Part shown: positions 1,389-34,240 of the stretch, in pieces
How the letters are laid out: the number at the start of each line of letters is the position of its first letter
Position numbering within the stretch: the first letter of the stretch is position 1
From: a virus
Virus genome (UHGV): UHGV-0388326
Length of the DNA stretch: 39,034 bases
Reading direction: 5' to 3' (one strand)
Notes under the pieces: generated by a model
What the model saw: the letters and a program-made list of their open reading frames with translations, nothing else
Told to the model about the DNA's origin: nothing
The model's database searches: none
Made by a program: the position numbers and the translations under genes

Positions 1389-2860
1389 CAGATACAGCGT
1401 TATCTCCTGAAGAGCAGTTGATCGAGGATATTGCAGGGTTCACTCACGATCCGCTTGGCTATGCCCTCTATGCGTTCCCGTGGGGGGAAGAGGGGACTGA
1501 ACTGGCACATGCTACCGGCCCACGTCAGTGGCAGACTGATGCGTTCCGAGAGATACGTGATCACCTGCAGAATCCAGAGACGCGCTATCAGCCGCTTATG
1601 CTGGCACGTGCTTCGGGTCACGGTATTGGTAAATCCGCATTCATCTCAATGCTGATCAACTGGGGCATGTCCACTTGCGAGGATTGTAAGGTCGTGGTGA
1701 CCGCCAACACCGACAACCAGCTACGAACGAAGACCTGGCCGGAAATTATCAAGTGGTCGAACCTTGCTATCACGAAAGACTGGTTTACCTGTACCGCTAC
1801 CGCGATGTACAGCAATGACCCAGGGCACGACAAGCGGTGGCGGGCTGACGCAATACCCTGGTCTGAGCACAACACTGAGGCATTCGCCGGACTACACAAC
1901 GAGCGCAAACGCATCATCGTGGTATTCGATGAAGCGTCGAACATTGCCGATCTGGTGTGGGAGGTAGCAGAGGGTGCGCTGACGGACGAAGACACCGAAA
2001 TCATCTGGGTGGCGTTCGGAAACCCGACGCGTAATACCGGACGTTTCCGAGAATGTTTCCGCAAATATAAACACCGCTGGAAAACTGCGCAGATTGACAG
2101 CCGGACGGTGGAAGGCACTAACAAACAGCAGTTGCAGAAATGGGTTGATGACTACGGGGAAGACAGCGACTTCGTTAAAATCCGTGTGCGTGGCATATTC
2201 CCTGATGCATCTGAATTGCAGTTTATCCCTACCGGTCTTACTGACGAGGCAATGAAACGGGTGGTAACCGCTGCGCAGGTGGCACATGCTCCTGTGATAA
2301 TCGGCGTTGACCCGGCATACTCCGGCGTTGATGACGCGGTGATATATCTGCGGCAGGGGCTGCACAGTAAGGTGCTGTGGACTGGCAACAAGACTACCGA
2401 CGATCTGATTATGGCGAAGCGTATCGCTGACTTTGAAGACCAGTATCAGGCTGACGCAGTGTTCATCGACTTCGGTTACGGTACTGGCCTGAAGTCAATC
2501 GGTGACGGCTGGGGGCGCACATGGCAACTTGTTCCGTTCGGTGGCGCGTCAACTGACCCTCAGATGCTCAACAAGCGCGGGGAGATGTTCAACTCATGCA
2601 AGACATGGCTGAGGCTGGGCGGGATGCTGGATGACCAGGAAACAGCGGACGACCTGTCGGCGGCAGAGTATAAAGTTCGAGTGGACGGTAAAATCGTTAT
2701 CGAACCGAAGGAAGATATCAAGGAGCGGCTTGGGCGTTCTCCTGGTAAAGGCGATGCGCTACTGCTGACGTTTGCTTTCCCTGTGTCAAAGCGTCTGCGA
2801 ATTCCCGGGCAGCAGAACCAGCAAGGCAAGGCCATCACAGATTACGATCCCTATGCTTAA
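1385..2860 (+). CDS. terL: terminase large subunit
   Basis: 491 aa; Walker A-like ARASGHGIGKS, acidic VVFDEAS motif, C-terminal nuclease-like region; GTG start overlapping terS stop. Confidence 0.9.
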   Translation: MTDTALSPEEQLIEDIAGFTHDPLGYALYAFPWGEEGTELAHATGPRQWQTDAFREIRDHLQNPETRYQPLMLARASGHGIGKSAFISMLINWGMSTCEDCKVVVTANTDNQLRTKTWPEIIKWSNLAITKDWFTCTATAMYSNDPGHDKRWRADAIPWSEHNTEAFAGLHNERKRIIVVFDEASNIADLVWEVAEGALTDEDTEIIWVAFGNPTRNTGRFRECFRKYKHRWKTAQIDSRTVEGTNKQQLQKWVDDYGEDSDFVKIRVRGIFPDASELQFIPTGLTDEAMKRVVTAAQVAHAPVIIGVDPAYSGVDDAVIYLRQGLHSKVLWTGNKTTDDLIMAKRIADFEDQYQADAVFIDFGYGTGLKSIGDGWGRTWQLVPFGGASTDPQMLNKRGEMFNSCKTWLRLGGMLDDQETADDLSAAEYKVRVDGKIVIEPKEDIKERLGRSPGKGDALLLTFAFPVSKRLRIPGQQNQQGKAITDYDPYA

Positions 2861-2910
2861 TCCGCTAGTGGGGATAATGTCGTTGATATCCTCTGATGAG
2901 GATAAAACAA

Positions 2911-2930
2911 AGCCAGCTCATCGGCTGGCT
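2911..2930. terminator. hairpin between convergent terL and minus-strand gene, likely bidirectional terminator
   Basis: AGCCAGC-TCATCG-GCTGGCT; U-run on minus strand (TTGTTTT), weaker GTTTG on plus. Confidence 0.5.
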
Positions 2931-2934
2931 GTTT

Positions 2935-2946
2935 GTGACATGTCAC
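2935..2946. repeat. 12-bp perfect palindrome GTGACATGTCAC (copy 2 of 3)
   Basis: immediately after terL terminator hairpin. Confidence 0.7.
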
Positions 2947-2950
2947 GGTG

Positions 2951-3289
2951 TTATTGCTCGCTTAACTTCTGCTTCAGCAAGTAACCTTCGAGCATCCAGA
3001 TTTTGTTTACAGCATTCTGCCGGGCAATCTTCCGACCAATTTCTGCATCAAAGTTTTCCGGGCTTGCACAGGCGCTCTCTCCGGTGACGGTGAAGCCATT
3101 TTGTAGAGTCAATACACAAAATGTCAGCAGAGCCAAACTGTCGTGATAGTCATCGCCAGTTGCAATAGCTCCATCAGCAGCAGTGAAGTACGTTTCCGCA
3201 AGAATAATGCTTTCGATATGGTCTGGCGTAACGCGCGGGGCGGTTTTGCCTTTCTCAACGATTTCTTTTTCGATTTGCTGGTCGTTCAT
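2951..3289 (-). CDS. conserved hypothetical phage protein (112 aa)
   Basis: ORF with GGTGAG RBS upstream of ATG 3289; family not confidently recognised (possibly N4 gp49/Sf6 gp66-like, low certainty). Confidence 0.6.
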   Translation of the reverse strand: MNDQQIEKEIVEKGKTAPRVTPDHIESIILAETYFTAADGAIATGDDYHDSLALLTFCVLTLQNGFTVTGESACASPENFDAEIGRKIARQNAVNKIWMLEGYLLKQKLSEQ

Positions 3290-3402
3290 AATCTCACCTT
3301 AAAAAAATGCCCGGCGAACCAGGCGAACTGGAAGCAATGAGTTATGCCTTCCGTGGCTGTACGGGTTTACAGCATGAAGTCATCGCAATGGCGTCCTGCT
3401 GT

Positions 3403-3443
3403 AAAAAGGGCGGTGATAGTCCTTCAAGGGAAACCATCACCGC
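3403..3443 (-). terminator. Rho-independent terminator downstream of tRNA-Arg
   Basis: minus-strand hairpin GGCGGTGAT...ATCACCGCC followed by CTTTTT. Confidence 0.6.
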
Positions 3444-3487
3444 CAAGCACCTGGAACTTCTGGCATCACGGTCCTTAGGCGTGATTC

Positions 3488-3564
3488 TGGCGTGGCATGC
3501 AGGATTCGAACCTGCGACCAACCGCTTAGAAGGCGGTTGCTCTGTCCAACTGAGCTAATGCCAC
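3488..3564 (-). tRNA. tRNA-Arg, anticodon UCU (reads AGA), CCA encoded
   Basis: Minus-strand 77 nt GTGGCATTAGCTCAGTTGGACAGAGCAACCGCCTTCTAAGCGGTTGGTCGCAGGTTCGAATCCTGCATGCCACGCCA; 7-bp acceptor stem GTGGCAT/ATGCCAC, D-arm GCTC/GAGC, anticodon loop CTTCTAA, T-loop TTCGAAT. Confidence 0.9.
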
Positions 3565-3886
3565 AACGCTGAGAGCACTTAGCCTGTTAAGGCGCCACAC
3601 TTTGTCGCGGCTCCATAAATGCTCTCATCGTTGTACCCTCGTCTCTTCCGAGGCGTCACACCGAATCGCCGGGATGGTGAATCCCCGTGCGCGGAATAAA
3701 ACCGCTCGACTTGCACATTCCGGCTACCTGGTTCGTTTGCCCGAGCAAGGGAGGGTGCCCCTTAAACGTATCCAGACCGCTATCGGCGCATGTGCCATAC
3801 GCCGTACTGCTCAAAATAAAAGCTCACTCCACCTGTTCAATTTAACGACAAGCCAGTCAGGTTAGTAACCGGAATGAACTCTTTGG

Positions 3887-3901
3887 TTACCTGAAAGGTA
3901 A
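3887..3901. promoter_or_regulatory. TTACC-N5-GGTAA site upstream of virion gene operon
   Basis: TTACCTGAAAGGTAA in AT-rich region before gene at 3992. Confidence 0.5.
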
Positions 3902-3991
3902 TAATTTGTGCGTTAAATGTCAACTATCTACGATAAATAAATCATATGTGGTTAAATTGGTAATAATTTAATTGCGTACGGAGTCATTGAT

Positions 3992-4198
3992 ATGTGCATG
4001 GGTAGCTCACCGTCAGTGCCTGCAACACCAGAAGTTCAGGCAGCACCACAGGAGCAGGATGCCGCCGTTGTTGATGCCCGCGACGAAGAAACTCGTCGCC
4101 GTCGCGCTGCTGCTGGTCGTAGTTCTACGCTGCTTACCGGTTCTCAGGGCGACACATCAACCGCTAATACCAGCGGTAAAACGCTGCTTGGTCAGTAA
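3992..4198 (+). CDS. small virion protein, T7 gp6.7-like (tentative)
   Basis: 68 aa starting MC..., low-complexity charged protein immediately upstream of portal; resemblance to T7 gp6.7 N-terminus is from memory. Confidence 0.4.
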   Translation: MCMGSSPSVPATPEVQAAPQEQDAAVVDARDEETRRRRAAAGRSSTLLTGSQGDTSTANTSGKTLLGQ

Positions 4199-4212
4199 CC
4201 GGAGTCATTGAA

Positions 4213-5892
4213 ATGGCGGAAACAACTAAAGAGCGATTGAACAAACAGTTCGCACAACTTGAAAGCGAGCGTCAGTCGTTCGAGCCGCACTGGCGCGAGT
4301 TGAGTGATTACATCAACCCGCGTGGTTCCCGCTTTCTGACTTCTGAGGTCAACCGTAACGATCGACGCAATACACGCATTATTGATTCGACCGGGACTAT
4401 GGCGGCGCGCACTCTCGCCAGCGGCATGATGTCAGGCATCACAAGCCCCGCGCGTCCGTGGTTTCGCCTGGCTACGCCAGATCCTGAAATGATGGATTAT
4501 GGCCCTGTTAAGTTGTGGCTTGAGGCGGTGCAGAACCGCATGAACGATATGTTCAATAAGTCGAATCTCTATCAGTCGCTGCCGCAGTTATACGGAAGCC
4601 TCGGCACATACAGCACTGGTGCAATGGCAGTGCTGGAAGATGACGAGGACATCATTCGCACAATGCCATTCCCGATAGGCAGTTACTACCTGGCTAACTC
4701 ACCTCGTGGCAGTGTGGACACCTGTTTTCGCAAGTTCGCTATGACTGTTCGTCAGCTTGTTCAGGAGTTCGGGCTAAATAACGTCAGCGAATCCGTAAAA
4801 AGCATGTGGGAAAGCGGCACCTACGAGAAGTGGATTGAAGTGATGCATTCGGTTTACCCGAACATTGACCGCGATACATCGAAGCTGGATAGCAAGAACA
4901 AGCCATTCAAATCGGTTTATTACGAGGTTGGTGGCGATAACGACAAGTTGTTGCGTGAGTCCGGATTCGATGAGTTTCCAATTATGGCTCCGCGCTGGGA
5001 AGTTAACGGCGAAGATGTTTATGGATCATCATGCCCGGGTATGCTGGCGCTTGGACCTGTTAAGGCATTGCAGCTTCTTCAGAAGCGCAAGTCGCAGTTG
5101 ATTGATAAAGCCACCAATCCGCCGATGGTTGCTCCGACTTCCCTCAAGAATCAGCGTGCCTCCCTTCTTCCTGGCGACATCACGTATATCGATCAGATTA
5201 CTGGTCAGGATGGTTTCAGGCCTGCTTATCTGGTTAACCCCAGTACAGCAGATCTGGTAGCAGACATTCAGGACACTCGGCAAATCATTAACAGCGCCTA
5301 CTTTGTCGATCTGTTCATGATGTTGCAGAACATCAATACCCGCTCGATGCCTGTTGAAGCGGTGATCGAAATGAAAGAAGAAAAACTTCTGATGTTGGGG
5401 CCGGTTCTGGAGCGTCTGAACGACGAATGTCTTAATCCTCTCATTGACCGCGCTTTCTCGATGATGGTGCGTAAAAACATGCTGCCGCCACCGCCTGACG
5501 CGATGGAAGGTATGCCCCTGAAGGTCGAATACATTTCCGTCATGGCTCAGGCGCAGAAGTCTATCGGCCTGTCCAGTCTGGCATCCACGGTCAACTTCAT
5601 TGGTCAACTTGCGCAAGCGAAACCAGAAGCTCTCGACAAACTCAACGTTGATCAGGCGATCGATGCATTCGCTGATATGTCCGGAGTGTCTCCAACCGTC
5701 ATTGTTCCGCAGGAACAGGTTGAGCAGACTCGCCAGCAACGGGCACAGCAGCAACAGCAGCAACAAATGATGGCGATGGGAATGGCGGCGGCACAGGGCG
5801 CCAAGACGCTAAGCGAAGCTAAAACTTCGGATCCGAGTGTTTTGTCAGCTATGGCGAATGCAGTTAGTGGTCAGGGTGGGCAATCACAATGA
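4213..5892 (+). CDS. portal (head-to-tail connector) protein, T7 gp8-like
   Basis: 559 aa; Gln-rich C-terminus QQRAQQQQQQQMMAMGMAAAQGA resembling T7 gp8 tail; position after terminase. Confidence 0.8.
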   Translation: MAETTKERLNKQFAQLESERQSFEPHWRELSDYINPRGSRFLTSEVNRNDRRNTRIIDSTGTMAARTLASGMMSGITSPARPWFRLATPDPEMMDYGPVKLWLEAVQNRMNDMFNKSNLYQSLPQLYGSLGTYSTGAMAVLEDDEDIIRTMPFPIGSYYLANSPRGSVDTCFRKFAMTVRQLVQEFGLNNVSESVKSMWESGTYEKWIEVMHSVYPNIDRDTSKLDSKNKPFKSVYYEVGGDNDKLLRESGFDEFPIMAPRWEVNGEDVYGSSCPGMLALGPVKALQLLQKRKSQLIDKATNPPMVAPTSLKNQRASLLPGDITYIDQITGQDGFRPAYLVNPSTADLVADIQDTRQIINSAYFVDLFMMLQNINTRSMPVEAVIEMKEEKLLMLGPVLERLNDECLNPLIDRAFSMMVRKNMLPPPPDAMEGMPLKVEYISVMAQAQKSIGLSSLASTVNFIGQLAQAKPEALDKLNVDQAIDAFADMSGVSPTVIVPQEQVEQTRQQRAQQQQQQQMMAMGMAAAQGAKTLSEAKTSDPSVLSAMANAVSGQGGQSQ

Positions 5893-28496: not shown

Positions 28497-29747
28497 GTGC
28501 TTACCGATACAAAATTAAAAAACCTCAAGCCGCAGGACAAACTGTACAAGGTCTCCGATCGTGACGGGCTGTATGTAGCTGTGCTTACGTCAGGCACGGT
28601 CTCGTTTCGCTATGACTACCGTATCAACGGTCGCCGCGAAACACTGGTAATCGGGCAGTATGGGCGTGACGGTATCAGCCTGGCAGAAGCGCGAGAAGAA
28701 CTGATTGCTGCAAAGAAGCTGCTTAAAGCAGGTCAGTCGCCGGCTACGGCTAAACGTGACGGTATCAAAAAGATTCGTGGTGCCGAGACGTTTGCGGTAC
28801 ATACCGACAGTTATATGAAACACGTCATCTTGGCTGACAGTACCCGCGCAATGAAGCAGGCGGTGATCGACCGTGACATACTTCCGGTTCTTGGCAACAA
28901 AATGATGGCTGAAATTACCACATCGATGGTTCGTGATTTGTGTGACCGGATTGTCGAACGCGGTGGTCGGGCAACAGCAGTACAGGCCAGGGAGATCATC
29001 AGCAGCGTATACCGTCACGCCAATGACCGTGGTCATGGTTTGTTTAATCCTGCGGCTGATATTAAGCCTTCATCTATCGCCATATTTAAACCACGAGAGC
29101 GAACGCTGACACCAGAAGAAATTGGTCTTTTCTTCCGCACGCTGGATGCCATTGGTGCTATGGGCACTATGAAAATGGCTTTAAAACTGCTGCTTATCAC
29201 TATGGTTCGTAAGGGCGAATTCACCAATGCAACGTGGGATGAAATAGATTTTAAAAAATGGACATGGACAATTCCTTCAGACCGCATGAAGGGAAGCCGG
29301 GCGCATGTTATTTACCTGCCTAAACAGGCACAGGATATATTGGTCGGGTTGCAGATGTGCGCTGGTGGAAGTGAATATCTGGTTCCTGGTCGTTACAATT
29401 TCCGGAAGCCATTATCTAATGCCGCGCTGAACTCTCTGATCGACAGAACGGTGAAAATAATAAATGAAGATGGTGAGCATATTCAGGATTTTACCGTACA
29501 CGATATGCGCCGTACAGCCAGTACGTTGTTGCATGAGGCTGGTTATCCTTCAGACTGGATTGAAAAGGCTCTGGCACATGAGCAGAAAGGTGTGCGCGCC
29601 GTATATAACAAAGCGGAATACGCCAGACAGCGCGCCTACATGTTGCAGCAGTGGGCCGATATGATTGATTCCTGGATTAACGGCGAGCATACGGATCTGA
29701 TTCCGTTCTCCCCGTCGAAGTTTGAGAAGTGGATGGCGGGGGAATAA
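28497..29747 (+). CDS. int: tyrosine integrase
   Basis: 416 aa; N-terminus LTDTKLKNLKPQDKLYKVSDRDGLYV typical of P4-type integrases; C-terminal catalytic region with conserved R...HxxR...Y pattern; GTG start. Confidence 0.85.
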   Translation: MLTDTKLKNLKPQDKLYKVSDRDGLYVAVLTSGTVSFRYDYRINGRRETLVIGQYGRDGISLAEAREELIAAKKLLKAGQSPATAKRDGIKKIRGAETFAVHTDSYMKHVILADSTRAMKQAVIDRDILPVLGNKMMAEITTSMVRDLCDRIVERGGRATAVQAREIISSVYRHANDRGHGLFNPAADIKPSSIAIFKPRERTLTPEEIGLFFRTLDAIGAMGTMKMALKLLLITMVRKGEFTNATWDEIDFKKWTWTIPSDRMKGSRAHVIYLPKQAQDILVGLQMCAGGSEYLVPGRYNFRKPLSNAALNSLIDRTVKIINEDGEHIQDFTVHDMRRTASTLLHEAGYPSDWIEKALAHEQKGVRAVYNKAEYARQRAYMLQQWADMIDSWINGEHTDLIPFSPSKFEKWMAGE

Positions 29748-33655: not shown

Positions 33656-34240
33656 TTATTGTTTGTTTTTTTCGTTCTGGTTGATGACAAATTCAATGTA
33701 ACTTTCGATCTTTGCCTTCTCTGTTTCAGGTAACAATGCGTAGCGCGAGCGGTCATAGTTGATAGTTGCAGGATCATGCGGATGAATCAGTAGTTCATAT
33801 CCGTGACGCCCGAATGCAGATGCAACATTCTCCAGGGTGGAAATGGAAACGCTGACCTCATTGTTTAACAGGCGGCTTATTGTCACCTGGGCGACGCCGG
33901 ATGCGCGGTGAAGTTTTCCCTGAGTTGAAAGGTCGCGGCTTTCACTCATCCAGCGTTCCAGGTTGTGAGCCGCCAGTTGACCAATGTCGCTTGGTCCGAC
34001 AGGCTGAAAACCTTCCTGAGAAAGCGAGCGATCGATATCAAGCCAGTTACGGGGTTTATTGGCGGCAGCTTCAATTTTTCGCGCAACCTGGTCGCCGATA
34101 ACCTTCTTGCCAAGAGCCCAGCGGTTTACCAGATTTGCCTGAGTTCCAAGTTTTTCAGCCATCCGCGTCTGAACACCATTGAATTCACGGTCGATCAAGT
34201 CGTTGAGATTTTGCCTGCGGACGTCCTGGATACTTTTCAT
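33656..34240 (-). CDS. prophage repressor candidate, tandem HTH (XRE-like) domains, no peptidase S24 domain evident
   Basis: 194 aa; HTH-like segments MAEKLGTQANLVNRWALGKK and ASGVAQVTISRLLNNEVSVSISTLENVASAFG; located between operator arrays in lambda cI position. Confidence 0.6.
   Translation of the reverse strand: MKSIQDVRRQNLNDLIDREFNGVQTRMAEKLGTQANLVNRWALGKKVIGDQVARKIEAAANKPRNWLDIDRSLSQEGFQPVGPSDIGQLAAHNLERWMSESRDLSTQGKLHRASGVAQVTISRLLNNEVSVSISTLENVASAFGRHGYELLIHPHDPATINYDRSRYALLPETEKAKIESYIEFVINQNEKNKQ

What the first reader, a model, noticed from the sequence alone, without database searches (positions are those of the whole stretch)
3403..3564. Phage-encoded tRNA-Arg(UCU) as an independent minus-strand unit between terminase and head genes
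A complete cloverleaf with CCA encoded and its own terminator lies antisense to the structural operon. It differs from the host argU sequence I recall, so it is not simply a captured attB fragment, and int is 25 kb away. It would supply the rare AGA codon; its placement inside the late region on the opposite strand is unusual.
Basis: seen in the sequence. Interest (0 to 1): 0.45.

Follow-up and report, generated by a model that had tools for sequence, protein, structure and literature searches.

The report
Phage tRNA-Arg fused to unannotated RNA
The tRNA-Arg(UCU) is real but already annotated in relatives of this phiV10/epsilon15-type phage, and it is not a stand-alone unit because it is joined with no spacer to the 3' end of a widespread, unannotated ~240-nt structured RNA that sits behind repressor-controlled early promoters in many enterobacterial phages.

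Summary
A 77-nt tRNA-Arg(UCU) with encoded CCA lies at 3488-3564 (-), followed by an intrinsic terminator at 3444-3409. It differs from host argU at 13 of 77 positions, and the 10 stem differences are compensatory. attP and int lie about 25 kb away, and the phage integrates at guaA. The phage uses AGA about 4.8 times more than a host sample, in tail, tailspike and accessory genes and not in head genes. The tRNA itself is ordinary and is already annotated in sister phages and E. coli prophages.

The "independent unit" reading is not supported. Nucleotide 1 of the tRNA is also the last base pair of a conserved, pseudoknotted RNA (about 3565-3812, -). That RNA has strong covariation support, no Rfam match, and no annotation in the 1,064 of 5,426 complete E. 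coli genomes that carry it. In lambdoid phages it starts about 45 nt into the PL transcript. In P1 it lies between trnI and ban. Here it follows an operator-bearing promoter-like site.

The tRNA is an optional 3' add-on (29 of 47 Uetakevirus-type loci). The tRNA alone is low interest. The upstream RNA is the interesting part, and its function is unknown. A put-like leader or a stable early RNA are my leading guesses.

The parts
3488..3564 (-). tRNA-Arg(UCU), 77 nt, CCA encoded, discriminator G73, A20 present, anticodon loop CUUCUAA identical to argU
   Evidence: ARAGORN. Rfam tRNA 73.3 bits. Arm-by-arm comparison with argU: 64/77 identical, stem differences paired. Eight variants in relatives all keep the cloverleaf.
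3400..3444 (-). Intrinsic terminator T1: 14-pair hairpin GGCGGTGATGG...CTATCACCGCC followed by CTTTTT
   Evidence: Pattern scan. Base of stem and U-tract conserved, distal stem varies with compensation in 16 distinct relatives.
3463..3485 (-). Conserved small hairpin AUCACG-CCUAAGGAC-CGUGAU in the tRNA 3' trailer (possible processing or protective element)
   Evidence: Folds of 16 distinct trailers. Function not tested.
3565..3630 (-). 3' domain of the upstream structured RNA: long closing stem (CAACGAUGAGAGCA...UGCUCUCAGCGUUG) around a variable insert. Its last pair uses G3564, which is tRNA nucleotide 1
   Evidence: 41 distinct 3' domains among 93 copies, inserts about 20-180 nt. Stem of 14-17 bp kept in all 26 distinct variants, with several pair types per position. 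Fold of the co-transcript, z=-4.39.
3631..3804 (-). Core of the upstream structured RNA: hairpin H1, helices H2/H3, variable hairpin, H4 with loop-downstream pseudoknot, H5, and near-invariant 19-mer GGUAGCCGGAAUGUGCAAG
   Evidence: Covariance model R1: 141.5 bits, E=3.7e-41, the only strong copy in the window. 92.6% of cells paired against 29-46% for slid controls, 17 of 34 pairs with double-sided changes, 0/500 shuffles reach the observed values. No Rfam match at E<=5 or in four other phage contexts.
3813..3840 (-). Proximal promoter candidate TTGAAC-16-TATTTT, whose -10 ends 8 nt before H1 (8/12 match, below the scan threshold)
   Evidence: Read from sequence. The same 8-9-nt distance class appears with 9-10/12 promoters in five other loci. 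Inferred, not shown.
3887..3930 (-). Distal promoter candidate TAGATA(3930-3925)-18-AATTAT(3906-3901), abutting a perfect repressor operator TTACCTTTCAGGTAA (3901-3887)
   Evidence: Operator palindrome TTACC-N5-GGTAA: 15 sites against 0.67 expected. The same AATTAT|TTACC junction occurs at the phage's PL, TTGACA-17-AATTAT at 33564-33536. Close relatives have TAGACA-18-AATTAT 97 nt before H1. Epsilon15's record annotates a repressor site at the equivalent place.
3309..3324 (-). Second terminator-like hairpin T2 (GCCTGGTTCGCCGGGC + ATTTTTTT), ending about 10 nt before the RBS of the next minus-strand ORF
   Evidence: Pattern scan. Epsilon15's record annotates the equivalent stem-loop as a rho-independent terminator.
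2951..3289 (-). 112-aa ORF of the N4 Gp49 / Sf6 gene 66 family, co-directional with the tRNA (function unknown)
   Evidence: Pfam PF13876, E=1.8e-34. phrog_322, unknown function.
2911..2930 (.). Hairpin terminator between the terminase operon (+) and the minus-strand module
   Evidence: Pattern scan. Annotated as a terminator in phiV10.

Best explanation
The feature is a genuine, functional-looking, argU-type tRNA-Arg(UCU) carried by a phiV10/epsilon15-type temperate podovirus (genus Uetakevirus). It is not a self-contained gene. It is the 3' cargo of a minus-strand noncoding unit laid out as promoter/operator (about 3930-3887, plus a proximal candidate at 3840-3813), then a ~240-nt conserved pseudoknotted RNA (3812-3565), then the tRNA (3564-3488), then intrinsic terminator T1 (3444-3409). 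RNase P cleavage at the tRNA 5' end would both mature the tRNA and create the 3' end of the upstream RNA. The mature tRNA most likely decodes AGA (and, less well, AGG) for the phage's AGA-rich tail, injection, tailspike, O-antigen-modification and early genes. Shown here: the tRNA, the terminator, the zero-spacer junction, the structured RNA, the operator site and the codon bias. Inferred: co-transcription, repression in lysogens, RNase P processing, aminoacylation and the benefit to translation.
For: tRNA. It has 64/77 identity to argU. The D stem, T arm and anticodon loop are identical, and A20, C35, U36 and G73 are present. The acceptor and anticodon stem differences are paired. Eight natural variants keep the fold. 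Codon demand: AGA is 7.55 and AGG 4.37 per 1000 in the phage against 1.57 and 0.71 in 50 kb of E. coli processed the same way. By block, AGA is 0 in terminase/head, 8.7 in tail/injection, 19.7 in tailspike/O-antigen genes and 6.6 in early/lysis genes. The tRNA-less relative epsilon15 has AGA at 4.21 per 1000. Junction: homology between the window and tRNA-less phages runs through GUUGUGG, whose GUGG forms tRNA nucleotides 1-4, and the closing stem pairs G1. No promoter-like site lies between 3565 and 3830 on the minus strand. Upstream control: a perfect operator lies at 3887-3901, attached to the same -10/operator junction as PL. Terminator. The tRNA is an add-on to the RNA: 29 of 47 Uetakevirus-type loci have it, 18 have the RNA alone, and no lambdoid copy has it.
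Against: There are no transcript data, so co-transcription and repression are inferred. Both promoter candidates in the window match only 8/12 of consensus. An unrecognised promoter inside the RNA element cannot be excluded. Epsilon15 (natural deletion) and 18 relatives live without the tRNA, so any translational benefit is dispensable. The codon comparison with epsilon15 is a single pair. The head genes beside the tRNA contain no AGA.
Confidence: 0.7

Rival explanations
1. One reading: the tRNA is an independent transcription unit with its own promoter and terminator, expressed constitutively, including in lysogens.
For: It has its own terminator. tRNA genes are often expressed from weak or atypical promoters that consensus scans miss. 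The proximal candidate TTGAAC-16-TATTTT (3840-3813) carries no operator, so at least some constitutive transcription of the RNA-tRNA unit is possible.
Against: There is no spacer between the conserved RNA and tRNA nucleotide 1. No promoter-like site lies at 3565-3830 on the minus strand. The 240 nt upstream are under RNA-structure constraint, not promoter-like.
Confidence: 0.12
2. The main role of the tRNA is structural. It acts as an RNase P handle that defines the 3' end of the upstream RNA (tRNA punctuation), and decoding is secondary.
For: The junction has no spacer. In P1-type contexts a tRNA(CAU) sits 14 nt before the 5' end of the same RNA, sometimes inside a tRNA array. From general knowledge, the P4 CI and P1 C4 RNAs are matured by RNase P.
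Against: 18 of 47 Uetakevirus-type loci and all lambdoid copies have the RNA without any tRNA. The tRNA keeps every ArgRS identity element, an unaltered anticodon loop and an encoded CCA, which a mere cleavage handle would not need. AGA enrichment gives a sufficient reason for a decoding role.
Confidence: 0.12
3. The tRNA is an anti-defence spare that replaces host tRNA-Arg(UCU) depleted or cleaved by a host anticodon nuclease or toxin during infection.
For: Acceptor and anticodon stems have diverged from argU while the function-defining parts are kept. From general knowledge, phage tRNAs that evade tRNA-targeting defences have been described. Early, repressor-controlled expression would fit.
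Against: The anticodon loop, the usual nuclease target, is identical to the host's. The phage carries only one tRNA species. No known defence targeting tRNA-Arg(UCU) was linked here. Codon bias already explains the tRNA.
Confidence: 0.07
4. The tRNA is a decaying remnant or pseudogene captured from a host or another phage and is not used.
For: It is dispensable: epsilon15 and 18 relatives lack it.
Against: It has a high tRNA score. All stem differences from argU are compensatory. Eight variants in relatives all remain foldable, with a G or A discriminator. The terminator is conserved.
Confidence: 0.03

Closest known systems
E. coli argU (dnaY) tRNA-Arg(UCU)
   Same: Same length (77 nt), anticodon and anticodon loop, D stem, T arm, A20, G73 and CCA. 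64/77 identical.
   Different: 3 of 7 acceptor pairs and 2 of 5 anticodon-stem pairs are replaced by other Watson-Crick pairs, and there are 2 variable-loop changes and 1 D-loop change. It is phage-borne and is not the phage's att site (attB is guaA; PMC9782041).
tRNA-Arg genes annotated in sister phages (E. coli O157 typing phages 9 and 10, phiv142-3, Salmonella SPN9TCW, SPC32H, SPC32N, Klebsiella ST512-KPC3phi13.3) and in E. coli prophages
   Same: Same gene at the same place between terminase and portal. 100% identical copies are annotated tRNA-Arg in RefSeq E. coli chromosomes.
   Different: None of substance. RefSeq phiV10 and ZX5 omit the tRNA and place a hypothetical CDS over it.
Rare-codon tRNAs of other temperate coliphages (P1 trnI; ileZ-argN-argO of Stx phages, the latter from general knowledge)
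   Same: Phage-borne tRNAs for the rarest E. coli codons (AGA, AUA). P1 trnI is adjacent to the same structured RNA.
   Different: In P1 the tRNA precedes the RNA. Here it follows it, with no spacer.
HK022 putL RNA (cis-acting, protein-independent antiterminator)
   Same: By position only, for the upstream RNA. In lambdoid phages it lies immediately downstream of the operator-controlled PL, after cI, like putL (PMC9378689). No phage protein partner is conserved next to it.
   Different: put is about 70 nt with two stem-loops and occurs twice (putL, putR). This RNA is 190-250 nt or more with a pseudoknot and a variable 3' domain, and occurs once per phage. There is no sequence or model match in HK022. 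Antitermination was not tested.
P1/P7 C4 and P4 CI antisense RNAs, and isrK
   Same: Phage RNAs processed from early-operon leaders. From general knowledge, they are matured by RNase P.
   Different: These families are recognised by Rfam elsewhere in this same window (22254-22438) and do not match the RNA upstream of the tRNA.

Membership tests
Bacterial elongator tRNA-Arg(UCU) (argU type) | Canonical cloverleaf scoring above tRNA model thresholds | tested here: met
   ARAGORN call. Rfam RF00005 73.3 bits against a gathering score of 29, model positions 1-71.
Bacterial elongator tRNA-Arg(UCU) (argU type) | Anticodon UCU in a 7-nt loop, with ArgRS identity elements A20, C35, U36 and an A/G73 discriminator (identity set from established literature) | tested here: met
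   Loop CUUCUAA identical to argU. D-loop AGUUGGACA keeps A20. Discriminator G, or A in some relatives.
Bacterial elongator tRNA-Arg(UCU) (argU type) | Aminoacylation with arginine and use on the ribosome | not testable with these tools
   Needs acid-urea northern blots or tRNA-seq of infected cells.
Phage tRNA as codon-usage supplement | Cognate codon over-represented in phage genes relative to host | tested here: met
   AGA 7.55 against 1.57 per 1000, and AGG 4.37 against 0.71. Concentrated in tail, tailspike, O-antigen and early genes. Epsilon15, which lacks the tRNA, has 4.21.
Phage tRNA as codon-usage supplement | tRNA expressed when the codon-rich genes are translated, with a fitness effect on deletion | not testable with these tools
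   No transcript or phenotype data. Epsilon15 is a viable natural deletion.
tRNA fragment at a phage attachment site (attP/attB remnant) | Lies at or next to attP/int and shares identity with the host target tRNA | tested here: not met
   attP core at 28290-28306 and int at 28497-29747. attB is the guaA 3' end (PMC9782041). The tRNA is complete and 13 nt different from argU.
Independent transcription unit (own promoter plus own terminator) | Promoter between the preceding functional element and the gene | tested here: not met
   No spacer to the conserved RNA. No promoter-like site on the minus strand within 3565-3830. A consensus scan only, so weak or atypical promoters are not excluded.
Independent transcription unit (own promoter plus own terminator) | Intrinsic terminator downstream | tested here: met
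HK022 put-type antiterminator RNA (considered for the upstream RNA) | Located in the nascent transcript just downstream of an early, repressor-controlled promoter | tested here: met
   cdtI phage: TTGACA-16-CATAAT with an OR-type operator in its spacer, about 45 nt before the RNA. Promoter-like sites are enriched upstream, 39/114 against 6 and 10 in controls. Operator at 3887-3901 in the window.
HK022 put-type antiterminator RNA (considered for the upstream RNA) | About 70 nt, two stem-loops, homologous to putL/putR, two copies per phage | tested here: not met
   Different size and architecture. No hit in the HK022 immunity region with nhmmer, blastn or the covariance model. The only 16-nt match is inside nun. 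One copy per record.
HK022 put-type antiterminator RNA (considered for the upstream RNA) | Causes read-through of downstream terminators by binding RNA polymerase | not testable with these tools
   Needs in vitro transcription or terminator-reporter assays.
Any curated Rfam 15 family (for the upstream RNA) | Covariance-model match | tested here: not met
   No match at E<=5 over 2850-4250 apart from the tRNA. None over the homologous element in cdtI, SopranoGao, P1 or mEp390 at E<=1.

The most novel reading that the evidence does not exclude
The ~240-nt RNA fused to the 5' end of the tRNA (window about 3565-3812, minus strand) is a previously undescribed family of enterobacterial phage RNAs. 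It is pseudoknotted, has a near-invariant 19-mer, carries a variable 3' domain, and is placed at the very start of repressor-controlled early transcripts. On this reading it acts on a conserved host machine. It could be a protein-independent, put-like modifier of RNA polymerase, which would make the 'terminators' after the tRNA (T1, T2) conditional and gate the downstream PF13876 gene. Alternatively it could be a stable early RNA matured by tRNA-processing enzymes. The tRNA would then be cargo of this unit and not a gene in its own right. My sub-estimates are as follows. It is a real structured RNA: above 0.95. It is undescribed in the literature: about 0.6. It is specifically an antiterminator: about 0.25.
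Probability: 0.5. Interest if true: 0.72.

Novelty: already known. Interest (0 to 1): 0.38.

Why it matters
The tRNA by itself matters little. It is one more rare-codon tRNA on a temperate phage, already annotated in sister genomes. The practical points are that RefSeq phiV10 and ZX5 mis-annotate it as a protein gene, and that it should be expected to switch on with derepression rather than in lysogens.

The more useful result is what it is attached to. This is a strongly covarying RNA that is absent from Rfam, present in about one fifth of complete E. coli genomes and in P1-like plasmids, and located where lambda has nutL and HK022 has putL. If it proves to be a new polymerase-modifying or otherwise host-directed early RNA, it would add a second example to a class known from essentially one phage, and it would explain how N-less lambdoid prophages read through their early operons. 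The tRNA junction offers a ready-made experimental handle, because RNase P defines the RNA's 3' end.

Tried and rejected
(1) att-site remnant: rejected (attP at 28290, attB is guaA, PMC9782041).

(2) The upstream 240 nt as a small protein gene: rejected. Annotated ORFs over it disagree in strand and frame between records. Indels are not in threes, and substitutions are compensatory in helices.

(3) The upstream RNA as degenerate tRNAs (an ileZ-argN-argO-like array): ARAGORN and Rfam find no tRNA there.

(4) Homology to HK022 put: none. The 16-nt hit lies inside the nun coding sequence.

(5) A conserved protein partner next to the RNA: none found. The only recurrent neighbour is an upstream cI-type repressor gene. 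The first downstream protein in cdtI is acidic and not N-like, and PHROG functions are unknown.

(6) Literature search by sequence strings and by topic found no description of the RNA. The P1 genome paper could not be opened.

(7) TTGACA at 3923-3918 as the -35 for AATTAT: spacing is only 11 nt, so I replaced it with TAGATA-18-AATTAT, by analogy with relatives.

(8) A boxA/boxB-like reading of the RNA's 3' end: noted but not pursued, because the boxA-like bases are buried in the closing stem.

(9) Antisense target search for the variable insert: not feasible with these tools. The same insert also occurs in unrelated phage types, which argues against a phage-specific cis target.

Full report
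WHAT THE WINDOW IS. The 39-kb window is a complete or nearly complete genome of a phiV10/epsilon15-type temperate podovirus (genus Uetakevirus). The 1.5 kb around the finding is 96.9% identical to Escherichia phage vB_EcoP_ZX5 and about 97% identical to phiV10 and E. coli O157 typing phages 9 and 10. The large terminase gene (1385-2860, +) and the portal gene (4213-5892, +, PF12236) flank a 1.35-kb gap.

ARAGORN reports a single tRNA in the window, tRNA-Arg with anticodon TCT, at 3488-3564 on the minus strand. Rfam's tRNA model scores 73.3 bits over its full length. The 3' CCA is encoded. Among relatives, the base of this hairpin (GGCGGUG/CACCGCC) and the U-tract are constant while the distal stem is replaced by other self-complementary sequences, as expected of a real intrinsic terminator.

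A direct comparison with host argU (locus L132) gives 64/77 identities. The D stem, T arm and anticodon loop are identical, and A20, C35, U36, G73 and CCA are present. Three acceptor pairs and two anticodon-stem pairs are exchanged for other Watson-Crick pairs. Eight natural variants in relatives all retain the fold. This is a functional-looking tRNA and not a pseudogene.

IT IS NOT AN ATT REMNANT. The attP core ATTGAGTGGGAATGATT, described for ZX5, phiV10 and epsilon15, occurs once, at 28290-28306 and next to the integrase gene at 28497-29747. The bacterial site is the 3' end of guaA (PMC9782041).

IT IS ALREADY KNOWN. The same gene is annotated as tRNA-Arg in typing phages 9 and 10, phiv142-3, SPN9TCW, SPC32H, SPC32N and a Klebsiella prophage record. 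100%-identical copies are annotated tRNA-Arg in RefSeq E. coli chromosomes, and about 500 of 5,426 complete genomes hold a copy at 95% identity or more. RefSeq phiV10 and the ZX5 record lack the tRNA feature and instead carry a hypothetical plus-strand CDS over it.

CODON DEMAND. I applied the same greedy ORF procedure to the phage and to 45 kb of E. coli chromosome. AGA is 7.55 per 1000 in the phage against 1.57 in the host sample, and AGG is 4.37 against 0.71. The distribution is uneven. There are 0 AGA in 2,454 terminase and head codons, 8.7 per 1000 in the tail and injection genes, 19.7 in the tailspike and O-antigen-modification genes, and 6.6 in the lysis, integration and early genes. 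Epsilon15, which lacks the tRNA, has AGA at 4.21 per 1000 with the same AGG level. A supply role for AGA is therefore plausible, but it does not serve the head genes next door. It is also dispensable, since epsilon15 and 18 other relatives lack the tRNA.

THE TRNA IS NOT AN INDEPENDENT UNIT. The 430 nt upstream of the tRNA on its own strand carry no annotated gene. They nevertheless match, at 70-83% identity, unannotated DNA in unrelated phages: cdtI, Stx2c-converting phages, Ayreon, 2H10, P1, P7, D6, SopranoGao and mEp390. They also match 1,064 of 5,426 complete E. coli genomes (965 chromosomal places and 276 on plasmids), with nothing annotated under the match.

Alignment of 47 non-redundant copies shows an RNA-like conservation pattern. 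On a MAFFT alignment of 29 cores, RNAalifold predicts 31 pairs, 13 of them with double-sided changes. An explicit model has hairpin H1, helices H2 and H3, hairpin H4 whose loop CACC pairs with a downstream GGUG, and hairpin H5. For this model, 92.6% of cells are paired against 29-46% when partners are slid by 1-3 columns. Seventeen of 34 pairs show double-sided changes, the covariation score is 0.323 against at most 0.081 for the slid controls, and 0 of 500 shuffles reach the observed values.

A 19-mer, GGUAGCCGGAAUGUGCAAG, is unchanged in 20 of 21 enterobacterial genomes that were found with a different probe. A covariance model built from 21 cores finds one strong copy in the window (3631-3804, minus strand, 141.5 bits). 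It scores 125-154 bits in the 21 independent loci and 35 bits on a truncated remnant in epsilon15. It finds nothing significant in HK022 or in 50 kb of E. coli chromosome. Rfam 15 has no match in the window (E<=5) or in four other phage contexts, and text searches found no description.

THE JUNCTION. After H5 comes a 3' domain. It is a 14-17-bp closing stem (CAACGAUGAGAGCA...UGCUCUCAGCGUUG), kept in all 26 distinct variants with several pair types at most positions. The stem encloses an insert of about 20-180 nt that differs completely between phages (41 distinct 3' domains among 93 copies). The element ends in the conserved GUUGUGG. In tRNA-less phages a hairpin follows. In the window and 28 other loci, GUGG forms nucleotides 1-4 of the tRNA, and the last pair of the closing stem uses tRNA G1. 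No promoter-like site lies between 3565 and 3830 on the minus strand. The simplest reading is a single precursor that RNase P cuts at U3565/G3564. This reading is inferred.

WHERE THE UNIT STARTS. In phage cdtI, the cI stop is followed by a terminator and then TTGACA-16-CATAAT. The promoter's spacer holds a copy of the operator that occurs three times between cI and cro. This is PL/OL, and the RNA begins about 45 nt into the PL transcript. About 64 loci have a cI-type gene immediately upstream and co-oriented. Across 114 distinct loci, promoter-like sites lie within 160 nt upstream on the same strand in 39, against 6 and 10 in two controls. They fall into distance classes of about 8-9 nt and about 55 nt before H1. 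In P1 the RNA lies between trnI and ban, inside the C1-controlled ban operon.

In the window, the repressor (33656-34240, HTH_3) has operators of the form TTACC-N5-GGTAA, with 15 sites against 0.67 expected, scattered over the genome. One perfect site, at 3887-3901, abuts an AATTAT -10 exactly as at the phage's own PL. Close relatives have TAGACA-18-AATTAT there, and the window has TAGATA. A second, operator-free candidate (TTGAAC-16-TATTTT) ends 8 nt before H1. Both candidates match 8/12 of consensus, so their use is inferred. Epsilon15's curated record independently places a repressor site at the equivalent position.

THE TRNA IS THE OPTIONAL PART. The tRNA-Arg(UCU) follows the RNA only in Uetakevirus-type loci (29 of 47). 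A tRNA(CAU) precedes it in P1-type loci (12 of 16, plus 5 loci of unclassified context). No lambdoid copy has a tRNA. Epsilon15 carries a clean deletion from inside H2 to just beyond T1, removing the RNA core, the tRNA and the terminator. P1 CRISPRi data score trnI, ban and dbn as non-essential (PMC10695390). The module is accessory.

DOWNSTREAM. After T1 comes a second terminator-like hairpin (3324-3309) that ends about 10 nt before the RBS of a 112-aa ORF of the N4 Gp49 / Sf6 gene 66 family (PF13876). A bidirectional hairpin at 2911-2930 follows. Expression of that ORF from the upstream promoters would need read-through of two terminators.

WHAT THE UPSTREAM RNA MIGHT DO (INFERENCE ONLY). 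Several features point to interaction with a conserved host machine. These are its position at the start of early, repressor-controlled transcripts, its near-invariant single-stranded segments, the lack of any conserved phage protein neighbour, and its presence across unrelated phage types. The closest functional analogy by position is HK022 putL (PMC9378689), but it fails the membership tests on size, architecture, copy number and homology. A stable early RNA matured by tRNA-processing enzymes is equally possible, given the flanking tRNAs. I put about 0.25 on antitermination.

VERDICT. The tRNA is real, functional-looking and already known, and its interest alone is low. The noteworthy finding is the unannotated structured RNA to which the tRNA is fused.

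Noticed in passing
window 3565-3812 (-): A ~240-nt conserved, pseudoknotted RNA directly upstream of the tRNA. It is absent from Rfam 15, unannotated in the 1,064 of 5,426 complete E. coli genomes that carry it, and shared with lambdoid, P1-like, SopranoGao-type and Uetakevirus phages. It has a near-invariant 19-mer, GGUAGCCGGAAUGUGCAAG.
   Followed up: yes
window 760, 778, 3887, 21415, 22475, 22855, 26263, 28440, 33522, 33584, 34296, 34344, 34681, 36627, 36689 (15-bp sites): The repressor operator palindrome TTACC-N5-GGTAA is scattered over the whole genome (15 sites against 0.67 expected), giving a P1-C1-like dispersed regulon rather than a lambda-like OL/OR pair.
   Followed up: partly
window 22254-22438 (-), with ORF 21495-22220 (-): A C4 antisense RNA (66 bits) and isrK (63.5 bits) lie upstream of a Bro-N-domain ORF, with an operator at 22475-22489. 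This is a P1/P7-type immI (antirepressor control) module in a podovirus.
   Followed up: no
L001 (phiV10 NC_007804) 2672-2923; L003 (ZX5) 2012-2263: Public records annotate a plus-strand hypothetical CDS over the minus-strand tRNA and have no tRNA feature. This is likely mis-annotation.
   Followed up: yes
L155 (epsilon15) about 2600-2720: Epsilon15 has a clean deletion from inside helix H2 of the RNA to just past terminator T1, so it lacks the RNA core, the tRNA and T1. Its annotated 'RNaseIII' site overlies the remnant hairpin H1.
   Followed up: yes
window 3309-3324 (-) and 2951-3289 (-): A terminator-like hairpin ends about 10 nt before the RBS of the PF13876 (Gp49/gene 66 family) ORF, so that ORF seems to depend on terminator read-through.
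   Followed up: partly
window 3572-3590 (-); L005 2480-2500 (-): The 3' strand of the RNA's closing stem (UGCUCUCA, or UGCUCUUU in other copies) resembles boxA. In lambdoid copies a 5-bp hairpin follows about 10 nt later, which is nut-like. The boxA-like bases are predicted to be base-paired.
   Followed up: no
L014, L101, L105, L134 (variable inserts of the 3' domain): Some variable inserts contain T-arm-like motifs (GGTTCGATTCC), which hints at tRNA-derived or tRNA-mimicking modules.
   Followed up: no
window 3463-3485 (-): A conserved 6-bp hairpin (AUCACG...CGUGAU) lies immediately after the tRNA's CCA and before the terminator.
   Followed up: no
L004 (P1) 2489-2668 (-): P1 carries the RNA core, without the variable 3' domain, between trnI and ban, 14 nt after the tRNA's CCA. 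Nothing is annotated there in the richly annotated P1 record.
   Followed up: partly
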